From NCBI GenBank assembly GCA_012103475.1, contig WLWS01000006.1, forward strand, positions 136,518 to 200,517: 64,000 bases of DNA. The letters are read 5' to 3'. The notes under the pieces were generated by a model, which did not search any database, had not been told where the DNA came from, and saw nothing but the letters and a program-made list of their open reading frames with translations. Source of the stretch: Gammaproteobacteria bacterium. Lineage in GTDB: Bacteria; Pseudomonadota; Gammaproteobacteria; Eutrophobiales; Eutrophobiaceae. How positions within the stretch are numbered: position 1 is the stretch's first letter; the number at the start of each line of letters is the position of its first letter. Made by a program: the position numbers and the translations under genes. Shown here one piece after another: positions 28,672 to 41,720 of this stretch.

Positions 28672-29028
28672 ATGCCCGCTCGCGAAGTGGTCGCCCGGGA
28701 ACTCGCGGAAACTTTCCGAGTTTTGGGTCACGAATTAAGAATACGTATCGTCGAGGAACTGGCACATGGCCACAAAGGCGAACTCGATGTGCATACTCTG
28801 GTGGATATTCTGGATGTGCCTCAGCCTACTGTTTCCCAGCATCTGGGCGTACTTCGGAATGCGAAACTGGTTAAACAACGTCGAGTGGGCCGGCATGTAC
28901 ATTACTCGCTGACGAATCGACAGCTGGCCGGATGGCTTCTCAAGGCTTTGCTTTTTCTGGATGTGCGCTCTCATGATGCTGAAGAGCTGAGTCGAGCCGT
29001 CGAAGATGTTCGACGGGTATGGGGTTAA
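28672..29028 (+). CDS. ArsR/SmtB-family winged-helix transcriptional regulator (cysteine-free)
   Basis: FRVLGHELRIRIVEEL ... VPQPTVSQHLGVLRNAKLV...GRHVHYSL are canonical ArsR HTH motifs. There are no Cys residues, and ELDVHTL sits where ELCVCDL would be. Confidence 0.85.
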   Translation: MPAREVVARELAETFRVLGHELRIRIVEELAHGHKGELDVHTLVDILDVPQPTVSQHLGVLRNAKLVKQRRVGRHVHYSLTNRQLAGWLLKALLFLDVRSHDAEELSRAVEDVRRVWG

Positions 29029-29053
29029 TTACATATTTAATGGGAAGAGAGAT

Positions 29054-30685
29054 ATGACTACGACAACTACCGATATACCTCAGGGAACTATAGATGGACT
29101 CAAACGTCACTGGAAAGACGATATGTTATCGGGCTTTCTGGTATTTCTTATTGCCTTGCCTTTATGTCTTGCCATCTCGCTTGCCTGTGGCTACCCGGCA
29201 ATAGCCGGTGTATTCACGGCGATTATTGGCGGTATTTTGTCCGCTTTTATAAGCAATTCCGAATTGACGATCAAAGGCCCTGCTGCCGGACTTATTGTGG
29301 TCGCTTTGGGCTGTGTCACCGAATTCGGTTTCACAGGAGGACAGGATCTCGCTGCAGATATCCAGGCCTATCGATTGGCTCTGGGAGTCGGAGTAGTCGC
29401 CGGTATTATTCAAATTCTTTTTGGCGTTTTCCGCTCCGGCATACTCGGCGAATTTTTTCCTACATCAGCCGTTCACGGCTTGCTGGCTTCTATCGGTATT
29501 CTGGTCATATCCACGCAAGTACCAATTGTGCTTGGCGTCGCCGCCGGTGGGACACCGCTCGAGCGACTGGCCGCCATTCCAAGCTATTTCATTGAAATGA
29601 ATCCAGTTATAGCCCTGATAGGCGGAATAAGTCTCATCATCATGTTCGGGTTTCCGCTCATTAAGAATCCGCGGCTCAAAATCATACCGGCGCCCATGCT
29701 TGTCCTTTTAGTAGCTGTTCCTCTCGGCATGTATTTCGATATAGGCACTGAACAAATAGTGATGTTCGCAGGACAAGAGGCTTCACTCGGGCCACGCTAC
29801 CTTGTCGATGTGCCTAATAACATGTTCACTGCACTGACCTTTCCGGACTTTTCAGGAGTAATGACAAAAACCGGCATAACCTACATCATCATGTTCTCAT
29901 TAATCGGCAGTGTTGAATCCCTGTTAAGTGCAAAAGCCGTTGATCAGATTGACCCATGGCGTCGTAAAACTAATATGGACAAGGATCTTCTCGCCGTTGG
30001 CATTGGTAACACAGCTGCAGCCTTTGTTGGTGGTCTACCGATGATTTCCGAGATCGTACGAAGTAAAGCCAATATAGATAATGGTGCGCGTACCCGCTTC
30101 GCTAACATGTTTCATGGCTTCTTCCTGCTAGCCTTTGTCGCTCTGGTACCTGCATTAATCGATCGTATTCCCCTCGCAGCGCTTGCAGCGATGCTGGTAT
30201 TTACAGGTTTTCGACTCGCGTCCCCACAAGAGTTCGTCCATATGTACAAAATTGGTCGAGAGCAATTTATCATTTTTGTCTCGACCATCATTGGTGTGCT
30301 TGCAACTGATCTGCTTGTTGGCATCTGTATTGGAATACTGGTGAAAGCAATCATCCACGTCATCAATGGCGCGCCAATCGTTTCCTTGTTCAAGCCCAGT
30401 ATCACAGTTGAAAACGAGAGCGATGAGACGGCGACAATTAAGGTAGATAAATCCGCCCTGTTCAGCACCTGGATCGCGCTGAAAAACCGAATCGGCGGAC
30501 AAAGCGCGAAGCAAGTCATTGTCGACTTGTCTGACACCAAATTCGTGGACCACACTGTGATGGCGAATCTGGAAGCACTCGCCAAAGAATTCAGTGAGAG
30601 TGATCGCGAACTCTTAATCACAGGAATAGAGGAACATAAATCCTTATCTGAACATCCCCTGGCAGCACGAAAGAAATCGTACTGA
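29054..30685 (+). CDS. SulP-family anion transporter with C-terminal STAS domain (candidate bicarbonate transporter)
   Basis: DMLSGFLVFLIALPLCLAISLACGYPAIAGVFTAIIGG and TIKGPAAGLIVV are typical of SulP. The C-terminal section (QVIVDLSDTKFVDHTVMANLEAL) looks like STAS. Start set to ATG 29054. Confidence 0.85.
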   Translation: MTTTTTDIPQGTIDGLKRHWKDDMLSGFLVFLIALPLCLAISLACGYPAIAGVFTAIIGGILSAFISNSELTIKGPAAGLIVVALGCVTEFGFTGGQDLAADIQAYRLALGVGVVAGIIQILFGVFRSGILGEFFPTSAVHGLLASIGILVISTQVPIVLGVAAGGTPLERLAAIPSYFIEMNPVIALIGGISLIIMFGFPLIKNPRLKIIPAPMLVLLVAVPLGMYFDIGTEQIVMFAGQEASLGPRYLVDVPNNMFTALTFPDFSGVMTKTGITYIIMFSLIGSVESLLSAKAVDQIDPWRRKTNMDKDLLAVGIGNTAAAFVGGLPMISEIVRSKANIDNGARTRFANMFHGFFLLAFVALVPALIDRIPLAALAAMLVFTGFRLASPQEFVHMYKIGREQFIIFVSTIIGVLATDLLVGICIGILVKAIIHVINGAPIVSLFKPSITVENESDETATIKVDKSALFSTWIALKNRIGGQSAKQVIVDLSDTKFVDHTVMANLEALAKEFSESDRELLITGIEEHKSLSEHPLAARKKSY

Positions 30686-33552
30686 TGAGCGCAAGCACTC
30701 CATTCTACCGTCTCATCGAGGAGGCGGCCGAACCAGTTTCTCAGTTCTGGCCAATGAAAGGATTTGTCTCGCACAATCCAATACAGGGCCTCGAACATCT
30801 TCCTTTTGACGAAGCATTCCGGCAGGCAAAAGATCTGTTTGGCGCGGAAGGATATTTACCAGCAGAGGAATATCGGGCTTTGTTGCAGACTGGTCGTATA
30901 ACACAGGAAAGCGTGAATAGCGCGATGGCTCGTGTTGGTCCAGAGAATGATGAGTCTGTATCTTTATCATCGCGAACAATTTCAGCAAAGGAAGTACTGA
31001 GGCTTCATTTGCTGCATGGGATTGATGTGCTTGAGCCGGCACTACTTGAATGGCAGCTAACAAGTGGAGGTGCTTTAGAGAAGCCCTTTGCAGCTGCTAC
31101 TACAGAGTTGGACTTAGCCGGATTGTGGCAACAAGTGTTATCTATATTGAAGCTTGCCGACGGCTCTACGAACAAAAAGGGACCGATATCTGCGCAGGCA
31201 GATGAGGCCAGGCTCGATTTACCATTTCGCCGAACCCTCAGTGACTGGCTTGACGAGCTTACCAACTCCTCACTAGTCGCAAGCATCGATCAGCATCTGA
31301 TCAAATGGACATCCTCCTTTGTCGATGAAGGCATGGCCAGCTGGTCTATGCCAGGCAGGCCTTCCGGTTTTTATCTTGCGTGGCGTGAACTCGCCCAGCA
31401 CGATGCGAGTGCCCGACTCCTGGGAATAAAGAACTTTTCATCAAAGGTGGCCGCTTTGCCAGAGGATCCGGAAGCTGGCATCCAGCAATCGCTACAGGCA
31501 CTTCAGATTCCTGAAGCACGTTGGCCGGACTATTTAACCAGAGTGCTCGCCCAGTTGCCAGGCTGGACAGGATTGATTCGCTGGCGTGGGTTGAACCCGG
31601 ATGATCCGATTCAGAAAGCAGCGCCGATCGATGTTGTGCAATATCTTGCCGTTCGCATGTTTTATGAACGGGAGCTTGTTCAATTACAGGCCTCTCGGGA
31701 ATGGCGTATCGAAGGTAATTTACCAACGCTTACAAAATATCTGCAAGAACATGGCAGGGCGCCGGAAGCCACAGTTAGTGCCAACAAAGCGGCGGTATGC
31801 AGCGATGCCTGGCGATTGTTTAATCTCATGCAGCTTTTGAAATCTGAAGCAAGCTCTTTTACTGATATTAGATATGAGCAGGCAAAAGTTATGCTTGGCT
31901 GGCTTGATGAATTTCCTGTTGAGCAACATTTACCCGTTTGGCTTGAGGCATATGAAGATTCCTATCGGAATGAATTGTTGTCAAAAATTCACGCACACAG
32001 GGGAAACGTAACCGAAGCTAAGGAGCGACCACTCGCCCAGGCGGCATTTTGTATTGATGTTCGCTCAGAGCCCTTCCGCCGTCATTTTGAAGCAACAGGG
32101 GCAATAGAAACAATTGGTTATGCGGGCTTTTTCGGTATCCCGATGAGTCACCGCGGGTACGACACAGAAGAGTCCTTTCCACTTTGCCCGGTATTGCTGT
32201 CACCCTCAAATGCACTCTATGAATTACCTCGGGAAGGTCAGCAACAGGCACTCTCAAAATACGCCTCGGGTACACGCTGGCTACAACTAGGGGAGCAACT
32301 ATTTCACGATATAAAGCACAGTCCGATTGCGTCGTTTTTATTGGTAGATGTGCTTGGACTGTTTTTTAGCGTTGCGCTAATTGGCAAAACGCTCTTTCGG
32401 CGTTCTTACCATATCCTGCTTAGTGCAATGAAAAAATGGTTTGTTCAATCTGTCGAGACTGAGATTCAGGCCGGTGAAGAGACAGGTGATAAACCACGAG
32501 TTAGCGGCGTACCGGTTGAGCTTACTCGAGGTTATAGTGTTGCGCAGCAGGCTGATTTCGTCGAAGGTGGACTGCGAGTTACCGGGCTGACGGAAAATCT
32601 TGGCCGATTTGTCGTGCTCTGTGGTCACGGCAGTACAACTGACAATAACCCGTATTCTGCCGCCCTCGACTGCGGTGCATGTGGTGGGCGTCACGGCGAT
32701 CCGAATGCACGTACTTTTGCTATAATGGCGAATAATCCTTTGGTTCGAGCGGAGATCAAGAGGCGTGGTCTTGATATCCCGGAAGACACCTGGTTCTTAC
32801 CAGCAAAGCACAATACCACTGCCGATACGATCGAATTTTACGATGTCGTAGATGTTCCCCAAAGTCATCGAGAAGATCTGGAGAAGCTTCGCCAGTTATT
32901 TATTGAAGGTGGTGAGCAGCAGGCTCTTGACCGTTGCAAACGCATTCCGGGAACTCCGAGTAACATGACCGCGAAACAGGCTTTCGCACATGTTGAGTCA
33001 AGGAGCTTTGACTGGGCGACATCCCGACCTGAATGGGGCCTTTCGGGTAACGCCGCCTTTATCATTGGAAGACGGATGATGACCAAGGGTCTTGATTTAG
33101 GAGGACGTTGTTTCTTACATTCTTACAACGCACTTTCTGATCCGGAAGGCGCCTTGCTGGAAAAAATAATGACGGCACCGCTTGTAGTGGGCGAGTGGAT
33201 CAATATGCAGTACTACACCTCTGCAACTGATCCCTGGAAATACGGCAGTGGCAGCAAAGTTATTCATAATGTTGTGGGAGGAGTGGGGGTTATGTATGGC
33301 GCGCAAAGCGATCTGGCTACAGGCTTACCGCTGCAGACTGTGAATGATGGCGCCAGCCATTTTCACGAGCCCGTACGTTTACTGACTTTGATTGAAGCTG
33401 ATCACGCGATTGTTGGCGAAATCATCGCCAGACATGACATACTGCAACAGTTTTTTCATAACGGCTGGTTGAATCTTGTCGTTATCGATCCGAATACATT
33501 TGAGTTCCGTCGGTACAACACAGACGCAAGCTGGGAGTTGCTTGAGCTATGA
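30685..33552 (+). CDS. dabA: DabA (DUF2309) - carbonic-anhydrase-like subunit of DIC-accumulating (DAB/Mps) complexes
   Basis: 955 aa. N-terminus FWPMKGFVSHNPIQGLEHLPFDEA. CIDVRSE motif (C456, D458). GHGS (H648) and LDCGACGG (C663), with the same H-to-C spacing of 15 as the published DabA Zn site. The ATG overlaps the sulP stop. Confidence 0.85.
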   Translation: MSASTPFYRLIEEAAEPVSQFWPMKGFVSHNPIQGLEHLPFDEAFRQAKDLFGAEGYLPAEEYRALLQTGRITQESVNSAMARVGPENDESVSLSSRTISAKEVLRLHLLHGIDVLEPALLEWQLTSGGALEKPFAAATTELDLAGLWQQVLSILKLADGSTNKKGPISAQADEARLDLPFRRTLSDWLDELTNSSLVASIDQHLIKWTSSFVDEGMASWSMPGRPSGFYLAWRELAQHDASARLLGIKNFSSKVAALPEDPEAGIQQSLQALQIPEARWPDYLTRVLAQLPGWTGLIRWRGLNPDDPIQKAAPIDVVQYLAVRMFYERELVQLQASREWRIEGNLPTLTKYLQEHGRAPEATVSANKAAVCSDAWRLFNLMQLLKSEASSFTDIRYEQAKVMLGWLDEFPVEQHLPVWLEAYEDSYRNELLSKIHAHRGNVTEAKERPLAQAAFCIDVRSEPFRRHFEATGAIETIGYAGFFGIPMSHRGYDTEESFPLCPVLLSPSNALYELPREGQQQALSKYASGTRWLQLGEQLFHDIKHSPIASFLLVDVLGLFFSVALIGKTLFRRSYHILLSAMKKWFVQSVETEIQAGEETGDKPRVSGVPVELTRGYSVAQQADFVEGGLRVTGLTENLGRFVVLCGHGSTTDNNPYSAALDCGACGGRHGDPNARTFAIMANNPLVRAEIKRRGLDIPEDTWFLPAKHNTTADTIEFYDVVDVPQSHREDLEKLRQLFIEGGEQQALDRCKRIPGTPSNMTAKQAFAHVESRSFDWATSRPEWGLSGNAAFIIGRRMMTKGLDLGGRCFLHSYNALSDPEGALLEKIMTAPLVVGEWINMQYYTSATDPWKYGSGSKVIHNVVGGVGVMYGAQSDLATGLPLQTVNDGASHFHEPVRLLTLIEADHAIVGEIIARHDILQQFFHNGWLNLVVIDPNTFEFRRYNTDASWELLEL

Positions 33553-34019
33553 AAGTTTTTATTGCAATCGCGCTCTTTGCATTGTGGCTGGTGTTGTCTG
33601 CATCCTTTAACCCGGCCCATGTAGTGCTGGGAGCAATTGTTGCTTTAATCGTTGCCTGGATAAACCCGATAGGCACTCCCTATACGCGACGCTTTTTATG
33701 GCTGCGAGCGCTGGGCTATGCGCCCTGGCTATTCGGGCGAGTTGTTAAAAGCGGCTTACACGTCAGTCGACTTATTCTTTATCCTGCTCTGCCAATCAAG
33801 CCCGAGCTTATACAACACAAAACAAAGCTTCGCAGCGAAGGAGAGCTTGTTGTACTAGGCAATTCAATCACCCTTACGCCTGGTACGATCACCGTCGAAG
33901 TAGCGCCTGGCGAACTTATCGTACATGCCATTGATGCATCAGCGCAGCAGGACCTTATCAGTGGAGTGCTTGATGAGAAGGTCAGTCGTTTGTTCTCAGC
34001 ATGGGAGGGAGATCAGTGA
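33549..34019 (+). CDS. mrpE: Mrp/Mnh antiporter subunit E-like (MbhA-like)
   Basis: NSITLTPGTITVEV signature. Two N-terminal TM helices. ATGA overlap with the dabA stop. Confidence 0.8.
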   Translation: MKVFIAIALFALWLVLSASFNPAHVVLGAIVALIVAWINPIGTPYTRRFLWLRALGYAPWLFGRVVKSGLHVSRLILYPALPIKPELIQHKTKLRSEGELVVLGNSITLTPGTITVEVAPGELIVHAIDASAQQDLISGVLDEKVSRLFSAWEGDQ

Positions 34020-34288
34020 GTTCATTTTTTGTTTTTGTGCTCGTTACCCTGACGATGCTGATGCTTGTTTATTTATATCGTGTTATTCGCGGACCCAGTG
34101 TCTTTGACCGTGTGCTTGGATTAAACGGTATATCCACCAAGGCAATTGTTTTACTTGTGTTGCTTGGCACGATGTTTGAACGCGTCGATATGTTCGTGGA
34201 TATTTCAACCGGATACGCACTATTGAATCTCGTTGGTGCACTGGCCATCGCGAAATTCCTTGAAGAAAGGGGGACCTCAGAGAAATGA
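34016..34288 (+). CDS. mrpF: Mrp/Mnh subunit F-like (MbhB-like)
   Basis: YRVIRGPSVFDRVLGLN signature. GTG 34016 gives a GTGA overlap with the mrpE stop; an alternative ATG lies at 34001. Confidence 0.75.
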   Translation: MSSFFVFVLVTLTMLMLVYLYRVIRGPSVFDRVLGLNGISTKAIVLLVLLGTMFERVDMFVDISTGYALLNLVGALAIAKFLEERGTSEK

Positions 34289-34584
34289 CCGCCTTAGCAG
34301 TTTTTCTAATAGTCGTAGGACTATTTTTTCTTGTTGTTGGCTCGATTGGTATGATGCGCTTGCCGGATGTCTTTTCCCGTGCACACGCACTTTCGCTTAC
34401 TGATTCACTCGGGGCCGTTTTCGTTCTGGCAGGGCTTGCGGTCTATGAAGGTTTTACCCTTAATTTTCTTCGGATCATTGTTGTGCTACTGCTCGTCTAC
34501 CTGATGAATCCTGCAATTTCACACGCGACATTAAGGGCAGCATACCGTTCAGGTCTTCGGCCTTCTGCAAAGGAAGAAAAATGA
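34285..34584 (+). CDS. mrpG: Mrp/Mnh subunit G-like (MbhC-like)
   Basis: VGSIGMMRLPDVFSRAHALSLTDSLG signature; ATGA overlap with the upstream gene. Confidence 0.8.
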   Translation: MTALAVFLIVVGLFFLVVGSIGMMRLPDVFSRAHALSLTDSLGAVFVLAGLAVYEGFTLNFLRIIVVLLLVYLMNPAISHATLRAAYRSGLRPSAKEEK

Positions 34585-35105
34585 CAATTGAAATTCCACT
34601 TCTTATTTTACTGGTGATGACAGCTGCTGGTGCCATGCTGGTGAAGGATCTTATTTCTTCAGTGTTCATTCTTGGTTCCTATAGCTTCGCACTGTCACTT
34701 GTCTGGGCACTCCTGGGCGCAGTTGATGTGGCTTTTGTAGAGGCCGTTGTCGGGGCAGGACTGGCAACGGTCTTCTTCCTGTTAACCTTATTCCGGACCA
34801 CAGAAAAAGATGACGTTATACGTCGTCCGCCGGTACCCTGGGCGGCAATAATTGGCCTGCCCCTGTTAGGTTTACTGCTTCTTTATGGAGCGGGTGATCT
34901 ACCCGCATTTGGCGATGTAAGTTCTCCGGCAAGCACGCATATTTCTCCCTACTACCTCGAGAACAGTGTTGCGCAAACCCGAACTCCGAACGTGGTGACC
35001 GCTGTGCTCATGGATTATCGTTCTTTCGATACCTTTATCGAGACCATCGTGATATTTACCGCAGGGATTGCCTGCGCACTCATTCTCAGGAAGGGCGGCG
35101 AATGA
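34581..35105 (+). CDS. MbhD/MbhE-like protein (DUF4040 + MnhB N-terminal-type segment; equivalent to the MrpA C-terminal domain)
   Basis: AVDVAFVEAVVGAGLATVFFLL (DUF4040-like) and NVVTAVLMDYRSFDTFIETIVIF (MnhB-type) motifs. Confidence 0.7.
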   Translation: MTIEIPLLILLVMTAAGAMLVKDLISSVFILGSYSFALSLVWALLGAVDVAFVEAVVGAGLATVFFLLTLFRTTEKDDVIRRPPVPWAAIIGLPLLGLLLLYGAGDLPAFGDVSSPASTHISPYYLENSVAQTRTPNVVTAVLMDYRSFDTFIETIVIFTAGIACALILRKGGE

Positions 35106-35563
35106 TTCAGCCACATGACAGCGCTATCGTGCGTTCACTTGGTCATGTTGTCATTCCGATAGCTCAACTCTTCGGGGCTTATGTACTGGTGTTTGGTCAA
35201 CACGGACCGGGGGGCGGCTTTGTCGGTGGTGTGGTCATTGCGGCCAGCATGATCATGGCCATTTTAATCTTCGGCGTTGACTCTGCTGATAGTACGCTCG
35301 CCCGAAAAATACTGCATGGAGACGGGCTGGGTCTGCTGCTCTTTGGCGGTGTTGGCGGACTCTGCCTGATCGGAGGAGGTCAATTTCTGAATTACAGCTT
35401 CTTGCAAATCCCTGGTCTCGACGAAGCGTCTCAACATTATGCCGGAATACTATTGACCCAGATTGGGGTCGCCATGGATGTCGCAGTTACCGGCGTGTCA
35501 ATTGCCGTCAGTCTGTCATTTGAAGAAGATGAAATTTCTCAAGACGAGGTGAAAGATGCTTGA
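35102..35563 (+). CDS. mrpB: Mrp/Mnh subunit B-like (MbhF-like)
   Basis: GQHGPGGGFVGGVVIAAS signature of the MnhB domain. Confidence 0.75.
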   Translation: MIQPHDSAIVRSLGHVVIPIAQLFGAYVLVFGQHGPGGGFVGGVVIAASMIMAILIFGVDSADSTLARKILHGDGLGLLLFGGVGGLCLIGGGQFLNYSFLQIPGLDEASQHYAGILLTQIGVAMDVAVTGVSIAVSLSFEEDEISQDEVKDA

Positions 35564-35933
35564 GCTATTGCAAACACTGATACAACGACCGAACTTTGTT
35601 GTTTTCGTCATCTTGTTTCTTTGGGGCATCTATATCATGGCGGCCCATCCAAACTTCGTTAAAAAACTCATCGGTCTGTATATTGTGCAGATCAGCGCGA
35701 TTTTTTTTCTTGTCGCCTTCAGTGCCAAACAAGGTGCGACGGTACCGGTCATAATGGAAGGGGCGGCAGCGGTGGAACCACTTATCTATGCAAATCCGCT
35801 TCCACATGTGCTGACTGTAACGGCTATTGTGGTCCAGGTTGCAACTCTTGGCGTCTCGCTGGCACTCGTGGCGGGGATTTATCGGAAGTTTGGCACTCTC
35901 GATGAAGATAAAGTGATGGAACAGCTAAAATGA
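35556..35933 (+). CDS. mrpC: Mrp/Mnh subunit C-like (NuoK-like, MbhG-like)
   Basis: 125 aa with three TM helices and a NuoK/MnhC-like pattern; position between mrpB and mrpD. Confidence 0.7.
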   Translation: MLELLQTLIQRPNFVVFVILFLWGIYIMAAHPNFVKKLIGLYIVQISAIFFLVAFSAKQGATVPVIMEGAAAVEPLIYANPLPHVLTVTAIVVQVATLGVSLALVAGIYRKFGTLDEDKVMEQLK

Positions 35934-37396
35934 ACTCTCATCTGCCCATCCTGATTTTTCTCGTGCCCTTTTTTGTGGGTGTATCGATGCCTATTCTCAC
36001 GGCAAAGCGACCTTCGCTATGCCCGGATATCACTTTGGCTGCGGTTATTGTTATGTTTTTGCTGGCAATAGCCAATCTTTATATGGTTCAGACAGAAGGG
36101 CCAATCGAGTATGCACTCGGTGGCTGGACTGCACCGATTGGTATCGCGTGGCTTAATGATTCGATTGCAGCAATTGTGGTTTTGACAGTCACTGTGGTGG
36201 CATTACTGACGCTGATCTATGGCCGGGTTATTGTTAGCGCCGATCTGGCAAAAAGTGTTCCTTACTATACGCTTATCCTTATCATGATTTCAGGCCTGGT
36301 TGGCCTCGTGTTTGCCGCAGACCTGTTTAATGTCTTTGTGTTTCTGGAAGTTGCCGCCTTATCTGGTTATGCACTGGTTGGTGCCGGGGGTGGGAAAGCG
36401 CAGGTTTATGCTTTTCGCTATCTACTGCTGGGTTCTTTTGGCGCAACACTTTATCTGCTGGGCCTTGGGCATCTCTACGTAGTCACCGGTACGCTCAATA
36501 TGGCGGATCTGGCGCTACGACTTCCTGAGTTAATGACATCTACAGCAGTAGTCGGCGGTCTTATCTATATTTTTCTTGGTCTTTCGATCAAGATGGCATT
36601 AATACCACTGCACAGCTGGTTGCCAGATGCGTATACCAACGCGCCCTCCGCAGTGACACCATTACTGGCCTCCACCGTCACCAAGGTCGCATTGGTAGCA
36701 TGGGTTCGCATTGAGTATTCGCTTATTGCGCCAAATGTTGAAGTCAGTCATGTGCCTGTGCTGGTGCTGTTAGAGGAACTAGGCGTTATCGCAGCACTCA
36801 TAGGCGGTGCGCTCGCTCTAATCCAGACCGATCTCAAGCGTATGTTTGCTTATGGCGGGATCAGTCATATTGGTTTGATTCTGATCGGTGTGAGTCTCGG
36901 CAATGACACGGGATTCGTAGGCGGCATGTTTTACCTGATCAATGACGCTGTCATGCAAGCAGCACTTTTCATGATTGCCGGTGCTATTCTTTATTACCAC
37001 AAGGCCCGTACACTTGATGATATACGCGGTGTGGGTCTGCACACTTCACCCTGGCTTACAGGGGCCCTGATAGTGGTCGCAGTAGCAATGGTAGGGTTGC
37101 CACCTACTGGCGGTTTTTTCGGCAAATGGAATATCATACTTGGTGCCCTGGAGGCAGAACACTACTTTGCCGTATTTGCGGTGATCGCATCAACACTGCT
37201 GACCTTCGGTTATTTCCTTAAAGTATTCGCCGCCTGGTTCCACCAGACTGAATTTGTCGAAGCAAAATCAATCAAGATCTCAAGTGGCTTGAGAGTCAGT
37301 TTGGGTGCTATATCAATCTTAATGATTGCGCTTGGGCTTATGAGTGATTCAGTTGTGCAAATTTTACTTGAATCAGTAAACAATGGAGGCATTTGA
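35930..37396 (+). CDS. mrpD: antiporter-like subunit, MrpD/NuoN/MbhH-type (Proton_antipo_M)
   Basis: YALGGWTAPIGIAWLNDS, HSWLPDAY and MFAYGGISHIG are typical of MrpD-class subunits. Confidence 0.8.
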   Translation: MNSHLPILIFLVPFFVGVSMPILTAKRPSLCPDITLAAVIVMFLLAIANLYMVQTEGPIEYALGGWTAPIGIAWLNDSIAAIVVLTVTVVALLTLIYGRVIVSADLAKSVPYYTLILIMISGLVGLVFAADLFNVFVFLEVAALSGYALVGAGGGKAQVYAFRYLLLGSFGATLYLLGLGHLYVVTGTLNMADLALRLPELMTSTAVVGGLIYIFLGLSIKMALIPLHSWLPDAYTNAPSAVTPLLASTVTKVALVAWVRIEYSLIAPNVEVSHVPVLVLLEELGVIAALIGGALALIQTDLKRMFAYGGISHIGLILIGVSLGNDTGFVGGMFYLINDAVMQAALFMIAGAILYYHKARTLDDIRGVGLHTSPWLTGALIVVAVAMVGLPPTGGFFGKWNIILGALEAEHYFAVFAVIASTLLTFGYFLKVFAAWFHQTEFVEAKSIKISSGLRVSLGAISILMIALGLMSDSVVQILLESVNNGGI

Positions 37397-37403
37397 GAAG
37401 ACC

Positions 37404-39491
37404 ATGTCGATTTACACACTGATTCCTTTTCTACCGCTGGCAGCCTCGCTGATCCTGACACTATTTGGCGAGCAGCTGCAGGGCAAAGGGCAGCGACTTG
37501 TGATTCCGGCAATTGCACTTTCATTTCTGCTTTCCATTATTGCCTTCCTCGAAGTTATTGCAAACGGCCCGATTAATGTACAACTCTATCAATTTCTGAA
37601 TGTAGGCAAGCTGGTTGTTGATATGGGCTTTTTTCTCGATCAGCTCACCGTACTTTTGCTGCTGCTGGTAACCGGGGTCAGCACTGTCGTGCAGGTCTAT
37701 GCCTCCCGTTACATGGTAGGCGATCCACGGCACAGCCGTTTTTTTGCGCTGACTGCAATGTTTACAGCTGCAATGACACTACTGGTAATGAGCAGCAACT
37801 TAATGATGACCTTCATTTTTTGGGAACTCATGGGACTGTGCTCGTATCTGCTGATATCACATTACGCCGAGCGCCCCAGTGCCGCACGTGCCGCAACAAA
37901 GGTATTTCTGGTTAATTCCGTCGCCGATGCCGGACTCTTAGTCGGTGTCGTTCTGACTTTTCTGACTTTTGGCACGCTCGATATTCAGGAGATTCTGGTA
38001 ATAGCAAAATCAGGTGCTGATGTTTCCGATCTGCCCATAACACTGTTAACGCTATGTCTATTTTGCGGTGCAGTCGGCAAATCTGCGCAAATGCCTGCGC
38101 ACGTCTGGTTACCTTTTGCGATGGAAGCGCCGACACCAGTATCCGCGCTGATTCATGCCGCAACAATGGTGAATGCCGGGCCTTTTTTACTCGTGCGCCT
38201 GAGCCCGGTTATTGTGCTTTCGCCTACTGCGATGACGGTTATCACTATCGTTGGCGCCATGACGGCACTGTTTGCCGCAGTCGTGTCCTTAACGCAAACC
38301 GATATTAAGCGAACACTTGCCTATTCCACCATAAGTCAGCTCGGCTTTATGGTTATGTTATGTGGTGTGGGCGCATTTGTGGCCGCTATTTTTCACCTTA
38401 TCGCACATGGCTTCTTCAAGGCCTTCCTGTTTCTGTCCACCGGCAACGCGCTTACTGCCACCCATCGTCATTTAGAGCATGAAGAGGAAACGCCGGCACT
38501 TGCCAGGAACGGACTCTTTGTTGGCGCCCTAATCATGTCGATTGTACCGGTGCTGGTGTTTTTCTCAGGTTCCTATCGTCACCTGTGGCTTTCACAGAGT
38601 TCTTCCACCGCGGAAATAGCCTTATGGATTGTTGGCCTTGCTACGATCTTTTTTACTGCGATGTATCTCTTCAAAAGTGTGACGACAATCTTCCGCCGTG
38701 GTCCCACGGGAGCTAAAGACAGTGAGCCCCTTGTTTCTCCAGACCTGTTCTCTGCACGTCACGTAATTGGCGTTGCTGTCATAGCAGCAATCATGATTGC
38801 ACTGTTAATTACAGTATGGCGCTGGTTTGCGGGTTTCCTCTCGCCAGCAGTAGGTGGTGCGCAGAGTCAGCTTGCATCGGAATTTTCTGTCTGGATACTG
38901 TTGCCCTTGCTTGTCGCCGTGGCGGGCTGGATAGTCGCTTATGTCCGATTCAGACGTCCGCGCTTGCAGCAGACCTCGGTTTTAAAGAAACGACTTTATG
39001 TCTTCTTCCTGAATAAAGGGTATTTCGATGACATTTATGAGGTATTTCTGGTCCGCCCGACTTTAAAACTTGCTGACTGGACCTGGAGAAAGATTGATCA
39101 GGGTATTATCGATAAGGTCATAATTTCACTCGGTACTATAAGTACAGCGCTTGCCCATCGTCTCGGTTACCTCGATGCAGCTATTGATAAGGGAGTCATG
39201 TCGGTTGGTACTGGCAGTACTGCAATTGCCCATCGCCTCGGCTATCTCGATGCTATTGTTGATAATCGTGTTACTTCGGTTGGCTCGGTCAGCATCGGTT
39301 TAGCCCGTTGGCTGGGCAGATTCGTCGATACAGAGGGCATTTCTAAAACGGTTGATGGATTAGGACGGAGCGTGGATGCGTCCGGACACGCGGCTAGACG
39401 CTATGAACCACACACACTACAACACAACCTGTTGGTGGTAGTATTGTGGCTGGTTGCAGCTCTGGGTTTTTTCTACTGGATCGGGGGATAA
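37404..39491 (+). CDS. antiporter-like subunit, NuoL/NdhF/MrpA-N-type (DabB candidate) with expanded C-terminal lateral-helix region
   Basis: FIFWELMGLCSYLLI, VGKSAQMPAHVWLPFAMEAPTPVSALIHAATMV and LAYSTISQLGFM are NuoL/NdhF hallmarks. The C-terminus has four tandem 25-26-aa units and a final TM anchor. An alternative ATG at 37383 overlaps the upstream gene. Confidence 0.8.
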   Translation: MSIYTLIPFLPLAASLILTLFGEQLQGKGQRLVIPAIALSFLLSIIAFLEVIANGPINVQLYQFLNVGKLVVDMGFFLDQLTVLLLLLVTGVSTVVQVYASRYMVGDPRHSRFFALTAMFTAAMTLLVMSSNLMMTFIFWELMGLCSYLLISHYAERPSAARAATKVFLVNSVADAGLLVGVVLTFLTFGTLDIQEILVIAKSGADVSDLPITLLTLCLFCGAVGKSAQMPAHVWLPFAMEAPTPVSALIHAATMVNAGPFLLVRLSPVIVLSPTAMTVITIVGAMTALFAAVVSLTQTDIKRTLAYSTISQLGFMVMLCGVGAFVAAIFHLIAHGFFKAFLFLSTGNALTATHRHLEHEEETPALARNGLFVGALIMSIVPVLVFFSGSYRHLWLSQSSSTAEIALWIVGLATIFFTAMYLFKSVTTIFRRGPTGAKDSEPLVSPDLFSARHVIGVAVIAAIMIALLITVWRWFAGFLSPAVGGAQSQLASEFSVWILLPLLVAVAGWIVAYVRFRRPRLQQTSVLKKRLYVFFLNKGYFDDIYEVFLVRPTLKLADWTWRKIDQGIIDKVIISLGTISTALAHRLGYLDAAIDKGVMSVGTGSTAIAHRLGYLDAIVDNRVTSVGSVSIGLARWLGRFVDTEGISKTVDGLGRSVDASGHAARRYEPHTLQHNLLVVVLWLVAALGFFYWIGG
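39096..39404 (+). repeat. four tandem 75-78-nt (25-26-aa) repeat units inside the NuoL-like gene
   Basis: Units start at D572, D598, D623 and D649: DQGIIDKVIISLGTISTALAHRLGYL / DAAIDKGVMSVGTGSTAIAHRLGYL / DAIVDNRVTSVGSVSIGLARWLGRFV / DTEGISKTVDGLGRSVDASGHAARRY. Units 1 and 2 are also very similar at the DNA level (gcccatcgtctcggttacctcgatgc vs gcccatcgcctcggctatctcgatgc). Confidence 0.85.
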
Positions 39492-39499
39492 ACAACGTT

Positions 39500-40972
39500 A
39501 TGGATTCACTATTTACAGACCACCTGCTGAGCTTGATGATCGCCATGCCATTTATCGGCATGGTTATTCTCGCATTTTTAAGTGACCGAAAATGGGTACT
39601 CACGACGACACTTGTTATCACACTGATCAACACGGCGCTCGCTTTCTTTCTCTGGAGTCAATTTGACCTCACCGAAACCGGCATGCAATTCGTTGAACGC
39701 CATCAATGGATGCCGACCTTCGGCATAGAATATGCCGTCGGTGTAGACGGCATCAGTCTGCTACTGGTACTGCTGACCACCTTCCTGCCGCCTCTTTGTG
39801 TGCTTGGATGCTGGGATTCAATCACCACCCGCTTGAAAGCCTTCATGATGTTGATCCTGCTCGTCGAAGGCGCCATGCTGGTTGTGTTTACTGCCCTGGA
39901 TGCTTTTCTATTCTTCATGCTCTGGGAAGTCACCATGGTGCCCATGTATTTCATGATTGTGCTGTGGGGCGGGCCGAATCGCGTCGCAGCCGGTTTGAAG
40001 TATGTCCTGTACAGCCTTACGGGAAGTTTACTTCTGCTCGTCGGTATATTGGGGCTTTCACTGCAGGCGGGTACTTTCGACATCATACAACTGGCAGATT
40101 TCAGTTATTCGGAGAAATCGGAATTCTGGATATTCCTCGCCCTGTTTCTGGGCTTTGCGATCAAACTTCCGATGCTGCCTTTTCACACCTGGCTTCCGGA
40201 TGCTCACTCCGAAGCGCCGACCGCGGGTAGTGTGCTGTTGGCAGGGGTACTCCTGAAAATGGGTGGCTATGGACTCATTCGTTTCTGTCTGCCCATCTTT
40301 CCAGAAATGGCGCATAGTTTTGCGCCGGCTGTGCTGTGGTTATCAGTTGCCGGTATTTTGTACGGCGGTTATATGGCGCTGGCACAAGAAGATCTGAAGA
40401 GACTGGTTGCCTATTCTTCCGTCTCGCATATGGGTTTTGTCACTCTGGGAATTTTCTCCTTCAATAACGAAGGTATCGAAGGCGCCATTTTGCAAATGAT
40501 GACCCATGGCCTGACTACCGGTGCAATGTTCCTGATAGTTGGTCAGCTATATGACCGCACACACAGTCGCAACATAGCTGACTATGGTGGTCTTCAGCAA
40601 CGCATGCCCAGATTCGTGGCCATTCTCAGCCTGTTTGCGGTCGCGTCATTCGGTTTACCTACAACATCTAATTTTATCGGCGAGTTCCTTATTCTTGTGG
40701 GTGTCTCCTACGAAAACTTTATCTTCGTCGTGCTGGCGATGGGCGGCATTGTCCTGGGTGCGGCCTACATGCTGTGGATGTTGCAGCGTGTTGCCTTCGG
40801 TCAGGCACGCACCGAAGCTGCTAGACAATTAACAGATCTGAATTTTCGGGAAATGCTGACAATACTTCCACTGGCTGTTGCTGTGGTAGGTATTGGCGTC
40901 TATCCAGGGCCATTTCTTGAGTCTATGGATGCCAGTGTGACTTACGTGGTTGAACGAATGGCTCAGCATTGA
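39500..40972 (+). CDS. antiporter-like subunit, NuoM/NdhD-type
   Basis: FGIEYAVGVDGISLLLVLLTTFL and FHTWLPDAHSEAPTAGSVLLAGVLLKMGGYGLIRF are NuoM hallmarks. Start set to ATG 39500, 8 nt after the upstream stop. Confidence 0.85.
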   Translation: MDSLFTDHLLSLMIAMPFIGMVILAFLSDRKWVLTTTLVITLINTALAFFLWSQFDLTETGMQFVERHQWMPTFGIEYAVGVDGISLLLVLLTTFLPPLCVLGCWDSITTRLKAFMMLILLVEGAMLVVFTALDAFLFFMLWEVTMVPMYFMIVLWGGPNRVAAGLKYVLYSLTGSLLLLVGILGLSLQAGTFDIIQLADFSYSEKSEFWIFLALFLGFAIKLPMLPFHTWLPDAHSEAPTAGSVLLAGVLLKMGGYGLIRFCLPIFPEMAHSFAPAVLWLSVAGILYGGYMALAQEDLKRLVAYSSVSHMGFVTLGIFSFNNEGIEGAILQMMTHGLTTGAMFLIVGQLYDRTHSRNIADYGGLQQRMPRFVAILSLFAVASFGLPTTSNFIGEFLILVGVSYENFIFVVLAMGGIVLGAAYMLWMLQRVAFGQARTEAARQLTDLNFREMLTILPLAVAVVGIGVYPGPFLESMDASVTYVVERMAQH

Positions 40973-41015
40973 TGCCATTCATGTCAGGGACTCCTCTTTA
41001 TTGAGCGGTATTAAG

Positions 41016-41720
41016 ATGTCAAACAACATATATCGCATCCTCATTTCATATTTTCTTTGCTGGGTGTTAAGCGCGAACGCTGCAGCTCAGATTGACGAGG
41101 ATCAGACGGGCGCATGGTACATGTATTTATGGAATACGGCATTTGAAGACAGTCAGTTTGGATTGCAAGGGGATATCCAGCACAGAAACTGGGACCTTGG
41201 AGGAGACCTGGAGCAGTTGCTGATCAGAGGCGGCCTTAGCTGGTCTCCCGAGCAAAGTAATGTGAAATACACTTTGGGTTATGCCAACATCACATCCGGC
41301 ACCTTTGGTTCTTCGTCAAGCACCTCAAATGAGCATCGAGCCTATCAGAAGGCATCGATTCCTCAACGATGGGGTAAAAAACTTTATATTGGTCATCGTC
41401 TCAGGTTGGAACAACGTTGGGTGGAAGATCAGGACTATCGCAATCGATTCCGTTATTTCCTCAGTGCTAATTATCCCTTGAACAAATCTGACTTGAGTCA
41501 GGGAAGTGTTTATCTGTCATTTTACAATGAGCTATTCATCAACCTGGAAAAAGATATTGGCAATGGCAGGAAGGTCGATAATTTCGATAGAAACCGAACT
41601 TATCTGGCTCTTGGCTATAGCTGGACTAATCAAATCAGACTTCAATTCGGCTATATGCATCAAAAAACGAAATCAGTAGATAAGGGTCAATTGCAGTTCA
41701 ATTTATTTCATTCGTTCTAA
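41016..41720 (+). CDS. putative outer-membrane beta-barrel protein (DUF2490-like)
   Basis: Signal peptide MSNNIYRILISYFLCWVLSANAAAQ. Alternating amphipathic strands rich in Y/W/R. C-terminal ...FNLFHSF with terminal Phe. The DUF2490 assignment is from memory of the family pattern. Confidence 0.55.
   Translation: MSNNIYRILISYFLCWVLSANAAAQIDEDQTGAWYMYLWNTAFEDSQFGLQGDIQHRNWDLGGDLEQLLIRGGLSWSPEQSNVKYTLGYANITSGTFGSSSSTSNEHRAYQKASIPQRWGKKLYIGHRLRLEQRWVEDQDYRNRFRYFLSANYPLNKSDLSQGSVYLSFYNELFINLEKDIGNGRKVDNFDRNRTYLALGYSWTNQIRLQFGYMHQKTKSVDKGQLQFNLFHSF

What the first reader, a model, noticed from the sequence alone, without database searches (positions are those of the whole stretch)
39096..39404. 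Four-fold tandem 25-26-aa repeat expands the lateral-helix region of the NuoL-like subunit
Four consecutive units lie between the last core TM region and the final C-terminal TM anchor (LLVVVLWLVAALGFFYWIGG). Each has the pattern D-x-x-(I/V)-D-x-x-V-x-S-(L/V)-G-x-x-S-x-x-(L/I)-A-(H/R)-(R/W)-L-G, and they start at D572, D598, D623 and D649. Units 1 and 2 are nearly identical even at the DNA level, which implies recent duplication. In NuoL/NdhF this is where the long amphipathic horizontal helix HL sits. As I recall, canonical proteins carry a single copy of the D..(I/V)D..VN motif. Extra units would add roughly 50-75 helical residues, enough to reach across additional membrane subunits. That fits an arm that is longer than the NuoL-M-N trio. 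It is also a hotspot for copy-number variation by slippage.
Basis: partly seen in the sequence, partly recalled or inferred. Interest (0 to 1): 0.7.

Follow-up and report, generated by a model that had tools for sequence, protein, structure and literature searches.

The report
Repeat-lengthened lateral helix, DabA–Mrp complex
A NuoL-like membrane subunit, which belongs to a little-studied DabA (CO2-hydrating) plus Mrp-type ion-transport operon rather than to complex I, has its long surface "strap" helix lengthened by tandem copies of a 25-residue module that ordinary NuoL carries once, and the copy number has changed many times among relatives.

Summary
The repeat is real but overstated. Units 1-3 (residues 572-648) are significantly alike (0 of 2000 shuffles). 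Unit 4 is not significant on its own; it is the ordinary NuoL motif that precedes the last transmembrane helix. Units 1 and 2 are 64% (protein) and 72% (DNA) identical, so the duplication is not recent.

Canonical NuoL and NdhF carry one unit. This family carries 2-4, with 3 ancestral. Unit number changed at least 13 times among 82 orthologues, with different periods (25 or 27 aa) and breakpoints. The units are under purifying selection (dN/dS 0.15 versus 0.11 for the core).

The gene is not part of complex I. It sits in a conserved operon: SulP-DabA-MrpE-F-G-MbhD/E-MrpB-MrpC-MrpD-like-NuoL-like-NuoM-like. The long tail is rare (86 of 1.84 billion representatives). In every long contig checked it accompanies this operon.

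Operon content and subunit lengths do not change with unit number. So "one unit per extra encoded pump" is not supported.

Best reading: an elongated brace that reaches past the two neighbouring pump subunits over the small Mrp subunits. This is inferred, because AF2 gives helices at low confidence. A 26-aa lateral-helix insertion is already published for "2M" complex I, so this is a new variant of a known kind.

The parts
37383..39491 (+). NuoL-type antiporter-like subunit (702-aa ORF; probable true start M8 at 37404, giving 695 aa)
   Evidence: PF00662 + PF00361. TIGR01974 NDH_I_L scores 480.9 bits, above its 407.5 cutoff. Best PDB sequence matches and fold matches are complex-I ND5/NuoL. 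Orthologues start at MSIYT.
39015..39095 (+). Canonical start of the lateral helix (residues 545-571, 'KGYFDDIYEVFLVRPTLKLADWTWRKI')
   Evidence: Aligns to the same segment of Paracoccus NuoL and NdhF1. AF2 helix begins at residue 545.
39096..39173 (+). Repeat unit 1 (residues 572-597, DQGIIDKVIISLGTISTALAHRLGYL). Positionally equivalent to the single canonical 'D..VIDG.VN' unit.
   Evidence: D572 and D577 are invariant in 82 homologues.
39174..39248 (+). Repeat unit 2 (residues 598-622, DAAIDKGVMSVGTGSTAIAHRLGYL). This is the lineage-specific extra unit. It is a hybrid: its first 15 aa resemble unit B and its last 10 aa resemble unit A of the nearest 3-unit relative.
   Evidence: first 15 aa are 10/15 to B versus 7/15 to A; last 10 aa are 8/10 to A versus 4/10 to B. 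dN/dS is 0.09 versus L028.
39249..39326 (+). Repeat unit 3 (residues 623-648, DAIVDNRVTSVGSVSIGLARWLGRFV)
   Evidence: Unit-HMM score is 46 bits.
39327..39404 (+). Degenerate unit 4 (residues 649-674, DTEGISKTVDGLGRSVDASGHAARRY). This is the conserved pre-TM16 segment.
   Evidence: Not significantly similar to units 1-3. Conserved across the family: G661, D665, A666 and G668 are at least 90% conserved.
39411..39485 (+). C-terminal transmembrane anchor (TM16, residues 677-701)
   Evidence: AF2 helix 677-701. Hydrophobic window, mean hydrophobicity 0.6-0.9.
30685..33552 (+). DabA (955 aa), the beta-carbonic-anhydrase-like CO2-hydrating subunit
   Evidence: PF10070, E = 1e-262. E = 4.9e-115 to DabA2 9rd0_A, with Asp at the position aligned to the finger residue Glu444.
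29006..30685 (+). SulP-family transporter; its stop overlaps the DabA start
   Evidence: PF00916. Weak BicA/DauA-like matches below cutoff. Conserved upstream of DabA in L001, L002, L004 and L005.
33549..35933 (+). Small Mrp-type subunits: MrpE 33549-34019, MrpF 34001-34288, MrpG 34285-34584, MbhD/E-like (equivalent to the MrpA C-terminal domain) 34581-35105, MrpB 35102-35563, MrpC/NuoK-like 35556-35933
   Evidence: Pfam and NCBIfam matches.
35930..37396 (+). MrpD/NuoN-like antiporter-like subunit (488 aa)
   Evidence: PF00361; best NCBIfam matches are MrpD-type models.
39446..40972 (+). NuoM-like antiporter-like subunit (probable true start ATG 39500, 490 aa)
   Evidence: TIGR01972 NDH_I_M scores 598 bits. 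Orthologues are 490-493 aa and start 8-14 nt after the L stop. ATG at 39500.

Best explanation
Residues 545-674 encode the lateral helix (HL) of a NuoL-type subunit. That subunit is the largest membrane component of a DabA-linked, Mrp-type complex, not of complex I.

How the helix was lengthened: canonical NuoL/NdhF carry one module of about 25 residues ('D-x-x-(I/V)-D-x-x-V-x-S-x-G-...'). Tandem duplication of that module lengthened the HL here. The family's ancestral state is three modules. That is two extra modules, about 50 residues, or about 75 Å if helical. The window's lineage gained a fourth through an old, out-of-register 75-nt tandem duplication. This duplication produced hybrid unit 2.

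Most likely role (inferred): a longer version of the cytoplasm-side brace that HL forms in complex I and Mrp. It would run from TM15 of the L subunit over the NuoM-like and MrpD-like subunits. It would then continue across the block of about 20 TM helices formed by the small Mrp subunits. In this family that block is not covalently joined to the L subunit, whereas in MrpA it is. The helix ends in the TM16 anchor.

DabA probably docks on the L subunit as it does on DabB in DAB2. Ion flow through the three pump-like subunits and the Mrp module would then drive one-way CO2 hydration.

Shown: the repeat, its origin by duplication, its variability, the selection on it, the operon and its conservation. 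Inferred: the geometry of the helix, the subunit order and the DabA docking site.
For: Repeat significance and unit boundaries.

One unit in canonical proteins.

Unit counts among homologues: tails of about 109, 130 and 155-159 residues occur in 1, 97 and 23 of 121 proteins. The ancestral state is 3 units with at least 13 changes. Periods, breakpoints and copy identities differ between lineages.

Hybrid origin of unit 2.

Purifying selection: omega is 0.154 for the repeats and 0.088 for unit 2, against 0.106 for the core.

Helical prediction in two independent models: helices 545-616, 627-647 and 650-659 in the window protein, and 538-602, 606-615 and 619-642 in a 3-unit orthologue.

Composition: 41% small residues, 34% hydrophobic, no proline. 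This is typical of a helix packed at a membrane-protein surface rather than a soluble coiled coil.

Operon and its conservation. The tail is rare, at 86 of 1.84e9 representatives. All long contigs examined carry the DabA-Mrp operon, even at 33-39% tail identity.

Published structures: HL 'braces the complex' from TMH15 to TMH16 and connects the TMH7s on the cytoplasmic side. The Mrp small-subunit block is 50-16-14 = 20 TM helices (PMC7419157).

DabA docking on L: the positions equivalent to NuoL TM12 Lys399/Asp400 are variable here, while the other channel residues are invariant. In DAB2, DabA2 Glu444 functionally replaces these residues (PMC13144422). The window's DabA has Asp at the aligned position.
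Against: - Unit number varies from 2 to 4 with no change in operon gene content or in the length of any other subunit. A rigid brace with one fixed docking site for TM16 should not tolerate steps of about 37 Å.
- AF2 confidence is below 50 pLDDT across most of the repeats in both models. Both models also show breaks between helices.
- No coordinates were available, so membrane-parallel geometry was not tested.
- In sister clades the period is 27 aa and each unit contains Gly-Pro. In a continuous ideal helix that would rotate the helical face by about 180 degrees per unit.
- Glycine makes up 14% of the region.
- The conserved-face periodicity (3.53 residues per turn) is only marginal against shuffles, p = 0.06.
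- Subunit order and DabA placement are argued by analogy only.
Confidence: 0.45

Rival explanations
1. Molecular ruler for extra pump subunits. Each extra unit of about 25 aa (about 37 Å) accommodates one more antiporter-like subunit. A 3- or 4-unit helix would then strap four or five subunits beside L. Because no extra genes exist, the NuoM-like or MrpD-like subunit would have to be present in more than one copy.
For: The unit length of 25-27 aa matches the 26-aa HL insertion reported for NuoL of Nitrospira 2M complex I and for MrpD2 of Manganitrophaceae. There the insertion was postulated to accommodate one additional pump subunit (PMC9040806). Changes always come in whole units.
Against: All operons examined encode exactly three antiporter-like subunits, whether the L subunit has 3 or 4 units. 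Close relatives differ in unit number with an otherwise identical operon. There is no evidence for multi-copy stoichiometry.
Confidence: 0.1
2. The extra units are not a straight brace. They form a segmented, flexible helix-kink-helix element on the cytoplasmic face. This element could wrap the perimeter of the complex, contact the large cytoplasmic DabA, or bridge to a second protomer across the MrpE dimer interface. Under this reading, its exact length matters little.
For: Length steps of 25-27 aa are tolerated with no compensating change elsewhere. Each unit contains Gly, or Gly-Pro in the 27-aa clades. AF2 shows helix breaks and low confidence. Sequence is still constrained, with omega about 0.15, which fits a binding surface. 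HL lies on the cytoplasmic side, where DabA sits (PMC7419157; PMC13144422). Mrp dimerises through MrpE.
Against: AF2 predicts a continuous helix of 65-72 residues running through unit 1 and most of unit 2. The composition is that of a membrane-surface or packing helix. There is no direct evidence for contact with DabA. Canonical DabB has only a short HL, so DabA binding as such does not need a long one.
Confidence: 0.25
3. Functionally neutral, slippage-prone expansion. The repeats come and go by unequal recombination and are merely tolerated.
For: Unit number turns over rapidly. Some recent duplications have nearly identical copies, 39/44 in P0084 and 26/27 in P0124.
Against: dN/dS of the repeats is 0.15, and 0.09 for the extra unit, similar to the core. 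Asp, Gly and Ser positions inside the units are invariant or nearly so across 82 sequences. No family member has fewer than two units, and none has more than four. At least three units are retained even in clades with only 33-39% tail identity.
Confidence: 0.1
4. Assembly or annotation artefact: a collapsed or expanded repeat, or a frameshifted ORF.
For: Repeats can be mis-assembled. The single 2-unit case (P0062) comes from one short metagenome contig.
Against: The copies are only 55-72% identical at the DNA level, too diverged to mis-assemble. The same four-unit arrangement is found in independent assemblies, including a 6.6-Mb chromosome. The reading frame is intact through to a conserved TM16.
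Confidence: 0.02

Closest known systems
Lateral helix HL of NuoL / Nqo12 / ND5 / NdhF (respiratory and photosynthetic complex I)
   Same: Same protein fold and same position: TM15, then an amphipathic helix, then TM16. The start motif is the same ('YFD..Y..F.RP...') and so is the first 'D..(I/V)D..V' unit. TM5 Glu, TM7 Lys, TM8 His and TM11 His/His/Lys are conserved.
   Different: Canonical proteins have one unit and a tail of about 75-80 residues after the FD..Y motif. This protein has four units and 155 residues. The TM12 Lys/Asp pair is not conserved, and the Arg175 equivalent is Ser. The genomic context is not a nuo/ndh operon.
NuoL of '2M' complex I (Nitrospira; Chadwick et al. 2018, ISME J) and MrpD2 of Manganitrophaceae Complex_I_3
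   Same: An in-frame HL insertion of about 26 aa, about the width of one antiporter-like subunit (PMC9040806). The unit here is 25-27 aa.
   Different: Those are single insertions, each matched by an extra nuoM gene, inside true complex I. Here there are 1-3 extra units that are visibly tandem repeats. Their number varies among orthologues and no extra pump gene accompanies them. The complex is DabA + Mrp-type. The primary paper could not be read, so I cannot say whether its insertion is also a duplicated unit.
MrpA of Mrp Na+/H+ antiporters (structures 6z16, 7d3u, 7qru)
   Same: The operon has homologues of MrpB, C, D, E, F and G and of the MrpA C-terminal domain. In Mrp, HL 'braces the complex' (PMC7419157).
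   Different: The L subunit is closer to NuoL (E = 1e-75 to 1e-90) than to MrpA (about 1e-40 to 1e-43). The MrpA C-terminal domain is a separate MbhD/E-like protein. There is an additional NuoM-like subunit and a DabA gene. The HL is much longer.
DAB1/DAB2 (DabA-DabB, with or without DabC) vectorial CO2-hydrating complexes
   Same: Full-length DabA (PF10070; E = 4.9e-115 to DabA2), with an acidic residue aligned to finger residue Glu444. The L subunit has lost the TM12 Lys/Asp pair that DabA2 Glu444 replaces in DabB2. Neighbours include P-II, SulP, an LCIB-like carbonic anhydrase and MpsC.
   Different: Known DABs are two- or three-subunit complexes whose DabB has only a short HL, residues 499-527. 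Here DabA comes with nine membrane subunits, including three antiporter-like ones. The partner is NuoL-like rather than DabB-clade (2.5e-42 to DabB2). Only a brief neighbourhood note exists: COGNAT 'clade C', ybcC with SulP and NuoM genes (PMC5700660).

Membership tests
NuoL/ND5-type antiporter-like subunit | Proton_antipo_N (PF00662) plus Proton_antipo_M (PF00361) domains | tested here: met
   E = 2.1e-16 and 5.8e-61.
NuoL/ND5-type antiporter-like subunit | Scores above curated NuoL model cutoffs | tested here: inconclusive
   The subfamily model TIGR01974 is passed (480.9 bits, cutoff 407.5). The equivalog model NF005141 is not (498.8 bits, cutoff 556).
NuoL/ND5-type antiporter-like subunit | Conserved proton-channel residues, including TM12 Lys399/Asp400 (E. 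coli numbering) | tested here: not met
   E148, K233, H258, H338, H342 and K346 are invariant or nearly so. The TM12 positions are variable: R/Q/K/G at 399 and H/Y/D/Q/N at 400. The Arg175 equivalent is Ser or Ala.
NuoL/ND5-type antiporter-like subunit | TM15, lateral helix, TM16 architecture with a single HL unit | tested here: not met
   The architecture is present, but with four units where canonical proteins have one.
Respiratory complex I (nuo/nqo operon) | Encoded with NuoA-K, NuoH and the Q and N modules | tested here: not met
   The neighbours are SulP, DabA, MrpE/F/G, MbhD/E-like, MrpB, MrpC, MrpD-like and NuoM-like. There is no NuoH, B, C, D or I.
'2M'-type complex I with HL insertion | HL insertion of about 26 aa in the L subunit | tested here: met
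   Extra units of 25 aa (27 aa in sister clades). The published feature is cited from PMC9040806.
'2M'-type complex I with HL insertion | An additional NuoM gene matching each insertion | tested here: not met
   There is one NuoM-like and one MrpD-like gene in every operon, regardless of unit number.
Mrp (group 3) cation/proton antiporter | Full set of MrpA-G subunits | tested here: inconclusive
   Homologues of B, C, D, E, F and G and of the MrpA C-terminal domain are present. MrpA is replaced by a NuoL-like protein plus a separate MbhD/E-like protein, and extra NuoM-like and DabA genes are present.
Mrp (group 3) cation/proton antiporter | Na+(K+)/H+ antiport activity | not testable with these tools
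   Needs transport assays.
DAB (DabA/DabB) CO2-uptake complex | DabA (PF10070) with the membrane finger and its acidic residue | tested here: met
   PF10070 over its full length, E = 1e-262. The alignment to DabA2 covers the finger region. Asp aligns with Glu444. The zinc ligands were not checked one by one.
DAB (DabA/DabB) CO2-uptake complex | Partner belongs to the DabB clade of PF00361, with a short HL and no other membrane subunits (DabC at most) | tested here: not met
   The L subunit is much closer to NuoL than to DabB2. Its HL is long. Eight further membrane subunits are encoded.
DAB (DabA/DabB) CO2-uptake complex | Energy-coupled CO2 hydration (rescue of carbonic-anhydrase-free E. coli) | not testable with these tools
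   Needs a complementation experiment.

The most novel reading that the evidence does not exclude
The repeat number acts as a true molecular ruler in an undescribed multi-pump CO2-hydrating machine. Each 25-27-aa module would be a docking site for one membrane module. Three- and four-unit L subunits would then assemble arms of different length from the same genes. This could happen through extra copies of the NuoM-like or MrpD-like subunit, or by strapping a second protomer. The ion-to-CO2 coupling ratio would be tuned by simple unequal recombination.
Probability: 0.1. Interest if true: 0.85.

Novelty: new variant of a known kind. Interest (0 to 1): 0.58.

Why it matters
The lateral helix of NuoL is the hallmark brace of complex I and its relatives. 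Its role, coupling rod or clamp, was debated for years using engineered insertions. Here nature supplies a ready-made length series of 2, 3 and 4 units in otherwise identical operons. Each step is about the width of one pump subunit, and every copy is under purifying selection.

The series sits in a complex that has barely been noticed. A DabA CO2-hydrating subunit is joined to a full Mrp-type module with three pump-like subunits. This is far larger than the two- or three-subunit DAB complexes whose structures were solved in 2026.

If the complex is a high-coupling-ratio CO2 pump, it would be a chemotroph counterpart of the cyanobacterial NDH-1/Cup systems. The repeat would show how its arm is held together. 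It occurs mainly in metagenome-assembled genomes labelled Gammaproteobacteria, such as Pseudohongiella, Woeseiaceae, Arenicellaceae and Ca. Rariloculaceae.

If the extra length proves to be only a tolerated brace extension, the finding is a modest structural variant.

Tried and rejected
- Tandem Repeats Finder at the DNA level found nothing. The repeat is visible only as one 72%-identical 75-nt pair and at the protein level.
- Promoter and terminator scans across the operon gave no more sites than shuffles and were not used.
- Hydrophobic-moment scanning showed only moderate amphipathicity (0.2-0.5) and no clean angular peak over the whole region, so it was not decisive.
- Conservation periodicity peaked at 3.53 residues per turn but with p = 0.06. 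I treat it as suggestive only.
- Two AF2 runs, one on the 4-unit window protein and one on a 3-unit orthologue with a gap-free tail alignment, both gave helices but pLDDT below 50 in the repeats. Coordinates are not exposed, so helix orientation and length could not be measured.
- Foldseek against the PDB only re-identified NuoL/ND5/NdhF.
- I looked for covariation between unit number and other operon features: number of PF00361 genes and the lengths of DabA, MrpE-G, MbhD/E, MrpB, MrpC, MrpD and NuoM. There was none.
- The primary paper on the 26-aa HL insertion (Chadwick 2018) is not in the library, so it is cited second-hand through PMC9040806.
- Literature searches for a described DabA-Mrp complex found only the COGNAT neighbourhood note.
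- DNA for the closest orthologue (P0001) was unavailable, so dN/dS used L028, the 82%-identical orthologue, where dS is about 1 and close to saturation.
- The misassembly explanation was rejected because the copies are too diverged and the arrangement recurs in independent assemblies.
Full report
OBSERVATION

The ORF 37383..39491 (+) encodes a 702-aa protein. Orthologues begin at 'MSIYT', so the real start is probably M8 (37404), giving 695 aa.

Units 1-3 are genuinely repeated: DQGIIDKVIISLGTISTALAHRLGYL, DAAIDKGVMSVGTGSTAIAHRLGYL and DAIVDNRVTSVGSVSIGLARWLGRFV. Pairwise local scores are 45-81 against a shuffle mean of about 17 (sd 3.5), and none of 2000 shuffles reached them.

Unit 4 (DTEGISKTVDGLGRSVDASGHAARRY) is not significantly similar to the others. 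It is the conserved segment that precedes the last transmembrane helix.

The statement that units 1 and 2 are nearly identical at the DNA level does not hold. They share 16/25 residues and 54/75 nucleotides. The best 30-nt window at a lag of 75 nt is 24/30, and Tandem Repeats Finder reports nothing.

CANONICAL PROTEINS HAVE ONE UNIT

The tail on its own aligns to Paracoccus NuoL (8qby_L) and cyanobacterial NdhF1 (6hum_F) from the 'YFD..Y' motif through one 'D..V(I/V)DG.(I/V)N' unit. Only about 25-40 residues, TM16, follow that unit in those chains. The NCBIfam NuoL profile and T. thermophilus Nqo12 both run out about 75-80 residues before this protein ends. This protein carries three extra unit lengths.

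WHAT THE GENE BELONGS TO

It is not complex I. On the + strand, with overlapping or nearly abutting reading frames, lie:
- ArsR-type regulator (28672-29028)
- SulP transporter (29006-30685)
- DabA (30685-33552; PF10070, E = 1e-262)
- MrpE (33549-34019)
- MrpF (34001-34288)
- MrpG (34285-34584)
- MbhD/E-like protein, equivalent to the C-terminal domain of MrpA (34581-35105)
- MrpB (35102-35563)
- MrpC/NuoK-like (35556-35933)
- MrpD-like (35930-37396)
- the NuoL-like protein
- NuoM-like protein (probable start 39500, end 40972)

By sequence and by predicted fold, the L subunit is closest to complex-I ND5/NuoL (E = 1e-75 to 1e-90; TM-score about 0.6). It is more distant from MrpA (about 1e-40 to 1e-43) and from DabB2 (2.5e-42).

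ORTHOLOGUES

The 120 best homologues are 62-92% identical. All show the same tail type, but with different unit numbers. Measured from the FD..Y motif, the tail is about 109 residues in one protein (two units), about 130 in 97 (three units) and 155-159 in 23 (four units).

On a neighbour-joining tree built from 535 core columns, the ancestral state is three units. At least 13 changes of state are needed among 82 sequences.

The duplications differ between lineages:
- Period: 25 aa in the window's clade, and 27 aa in clades that repeat 'WLWRVIDQGxIDRFIVSLGP...'.
- Breakpoint: the repeated segment starts at different positions.
- Age: copy identity runs from 14/16 in the window to 39/44 in P0084 and 26/27 in P0124.

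In the window, unit 2 is a hybrid. Its first 15 residues resemble the second unit of the nearest three-unit relative (10/15, against 7/15 for the first unit). Its last 10 resemble the first unit (8/10, against 4/10). This is what an out-of-register tandem duplication of one period would produce. The four-unit state is shared with orthologues only 82-92% identical, so the event is old.

Against the orthologue in L028, dN/dS is 0.154 for the repeats and 0.088 for unit 2. The core gives 0.106. The added unit is therefore constrained like the rest of the protein.

THE LONG TAIL IS A HALLMARK OF THE DabA-Mrp OPERON

A search of 1.84 billion representative proteins with the tail found only 86 hits at E <= 0.001. 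Most are fragments of the same family. Divergent full-length relatives of 695-727 aa have four units.

Where enough contig was available, all relatives carry the same backbone, DabA-MrpE-F-G-MbhD/E-MrpB-MrpC-MrpD-L-M:
- L001, L002, L004, L005 and the P0001 locus.
- The distant L026 and L027, where DabA is 1240-1265 aa and the neighbours include P-II, an LCIB-like carbonic anhydrase, MpsC and SulP.

Named genomes include MAGs of Pseudohongiella, Arenicellaceae, Woeseiaceae, Ca. Rariloculaceae, Rhodospirillaceae and Myxococcota.

KEY NEGATIVE RESULT

The operon always encodes exactly three antiporter-like subunits. No other subunit changes length with unit number:

| Source | Units | DabA | MrpE | MbhD/E | MrpB | MrpC | MrpD | NuoM |
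|---|---|---|---|---|---|---|---|---|
| window, L001, P0001 locus | 4 | 955 | 155-156 | 174 | 153 | 125 | 488 | 490 |
| L002 | 3 | 961 | 156 | 174 | 153 | 125 | 487 | 491 |
| L004 | 4 | 952 | 156 | 174 | 151 | 124 | 487 | 493 |
| L005 | 3 | 955 | 161 | 174 | 149 | 124 | 487 | 517 |

The idea that each extra unit matches an extra encoded pump subunit is therefore not supported.

STRUCTURE

AF2 on the window protein with 82 sequences gave mean pLDDT 67. It predicts helices at 545-616, 627-647, 650-659 and 677-701. pLDDT is below 50 for residues 602-681.

A replicate on a three-unit orthologue, with a gap-free tail alignment, gave helices at 538-602, 606-615, 619-642 and 646-669, again at low confidence.

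Its geometry relative to the membrane could not be tested, because only single chains can be modelled and coordinates are not returned.

Other indicators point the same way but are weak:
- The composition is 41% Gly/Ala/Ser/Thr, 34% hydrophobic, 20% charged and no proline. That suits a helix packed at a membrane-protein surface rather than a soluble coiled coil.
- Conserved positions recur every 3-4 residues, and the spectral peak lies at 3.53 residues per turn. Against shuffles this is marginal, p = 0.06.

HOW IT PROBABLY WORKS

Published structures show that HL braces the complex from TMH15 to TMH16 and links the TMH7s of neighbouring antiporter-like subunits on the cytoplasmic side. They also show that the small Mrp subunits, together with the C-terminal domain of MrpA, form a block of 20 TM helices beyond MrpD (PMC7419157).

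In this family the C-terminal domain of MrpA is a separate polypeptide. The small-subunit block is therefore not tied covalently to the large subunit.

Two extra units are about 50 residues, or about 75 Å as a helix. By my own rough estimate from TM counts, that is about the length of such a block. The best-supported reading is that the ancestral three-unit helix is a brace spanning NuoM-like, MrpD-like and the small-subunit block, ending in TM16. This step is an inference.

The fourth unit adds about 37 Å more and is not explained by this picture. Nor is the tolerance of 2-4 units, or the 27-aa Gly-Pro-containing units in sister clades. These points keep alive the rival in which the extra units form a segmented, flexible surface element.

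DabA AND THE L SUBUNIT

The L subunit keeps TM5 Glu, TM7 Lys, TM8 His and TM11 His/His/Lys invariant. The positions equivalent to NuoL TM12 Lys399/Asp400 are variable, and the Arg175 equivalent is Ser.

In the DAB2 structure, Glu444 on DabA2's membrane 'finger' takes the place of exactly those TM12 residues. One of the two regulatory ion pairs is also broken there (PMC13144422).

The window's DabA aligns across the finger region and has Asp at the Glu444 position. This suggests that DabA docks on the L subunit as it does on DabB. The L-M-D plus Mrp module would then supply ion flow to drive one-way CO2 hydration. That too is inferred.

COMPARISON WITH WHAT IS KNOWN

A 26-aa HL insertion is already reported for NuoL of Nitrospira '2M' complex I and for MrpD2 of Manganitrophaceae. 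In both it was interpreted as making room for one extra pump subunit (PMC9040806, citing Chadwick et al. 2018).

The present case differs in five ways:
- there are up to three extra units;
- they are visibly tandem repeats;
- their number varies among orthologues;
- no extra pump gene accompanies them;
- the host complex is DabA + Mrp-type.

Known DAB complexes have two or three subunits, and their DabB has only a short HL. In the literature I could search, the only trace of the larger operon is a neighbourhood note: 'clade C', ybcC with SulP and NuoM genes, in PMC5700660. Other searches found nothing.

VERDICT

The repeat is real: three clear units plus the canonical terminal one. It is old, selected, and a family-wide but numerically labile feature of an almost undescribed DabA-Mrp complex. 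The claim of a recent duplication is wrong, and the 'extra pump subunits' inference is not supported by gene content. I classify it as a new variant of a known kind, of moderate to high interest.

Noticed in passing
window 28672-40972 (+): A twelve-gene cluster, ArsR-SulP-DabA-MrpE-F-G-MbhD/E-MrpB-MrpC-MrpD-like-NuoL-like-NuoM-like, joins a DabA CO2-hydrating subunit to a complete Mrp-type module with three antiporter-like subunits. Described DAB complexes have only DabA, DabB and sometimes DabC. The only literature trace found is a brief neighbourhood note (COGNAT 'clade C'). The cluster is conserved in MAGs labelled Gammaproteobacteria (Pseudohongiella, Woeseiaceae, Arenicellaceae, Ca. Rariloculaceae) and in MAGs labelled Rhodospirillaceae and Myxococcota.
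   Followed up: partly
window 37383-39491, residues 179 and 399-400; DabA 30685-33552, motif 'LLVDVLG': The L subunit has lost the NuoL TM12 Lys/Asp pair (variable across 82 homologues) and the Arg175 equivalent (Ser), while its other channel residues are invariant. DabA has Asp where DabA2 has the essential finger residue Glu444. This parallels the DabA-DabB coupling site of DAB2.
   Followed up: partly
window 37383/37404 and 39446/39500: The mechanical ORF starts are probably too early. Orthologues indicate that the L subunit starts at M8 (37404, 695 aa). The NuoM-like gene probably starts at ATG 39500 (490 aa) rather than at the GTG at 39446 that overlaps the end of L.
   Followed up: partly
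window 40950-41720 (+): A DUF2490 gene directly follows the NuoM-like gene. The same arrangement appears in the P0001 locus, L028 and L005. It may be an associated, possibly outer-membrane, component or simply a conserved neighbour.
   Followed up: no
L025 510-2522 (protein P0168, 670 aa): This NuoL-like protein has a canonical '...RQIQSGQFHHYA' ending and exactly one extra copy of the HL unit ('RWLSDSLDVGVIDRAVNGVG...' / 'RWLSASIDVGVIDRAVDGFG...'). It lies next to a P-II gene on a short contig. It suggests that single HL insertions elsewhere may also arise by duplication of a unit.
   Followed up: no
L026 and L027: Distant versions of the operon have a much larger DabA (1240-1265 aa). They sit beside carbon-concentrating-type genes: P-II, an LCIB-like carbonic anhydrase, MpsC, CBS/GAF proteins and SulP. 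In L027 there is also a second DabA followed by P-II.
   Followed up: no
proteins P0073-P0085, P0089, P0122, P0124 (tails): In sister clades the repeat period is 27 aa rather than 25, and each unit contains Gly-Pro. Some copies are nearly identical (39/44 and 26/27), so those duplications are very recent. A 27-aa step would flip the face of an ideal continuous helix, which is hard to reconcile with a single straight amphipathic helix.
   Followed up: partly
L003 695-2662 (protein P0062, 655 aa): This is the only two-unit member seen. Its single clear unit looks like a fusion of the first half of unit A with the second half of unit B, that is, an exact one-period deletion. It comes from one short metagenome contig.
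   Followed up: no
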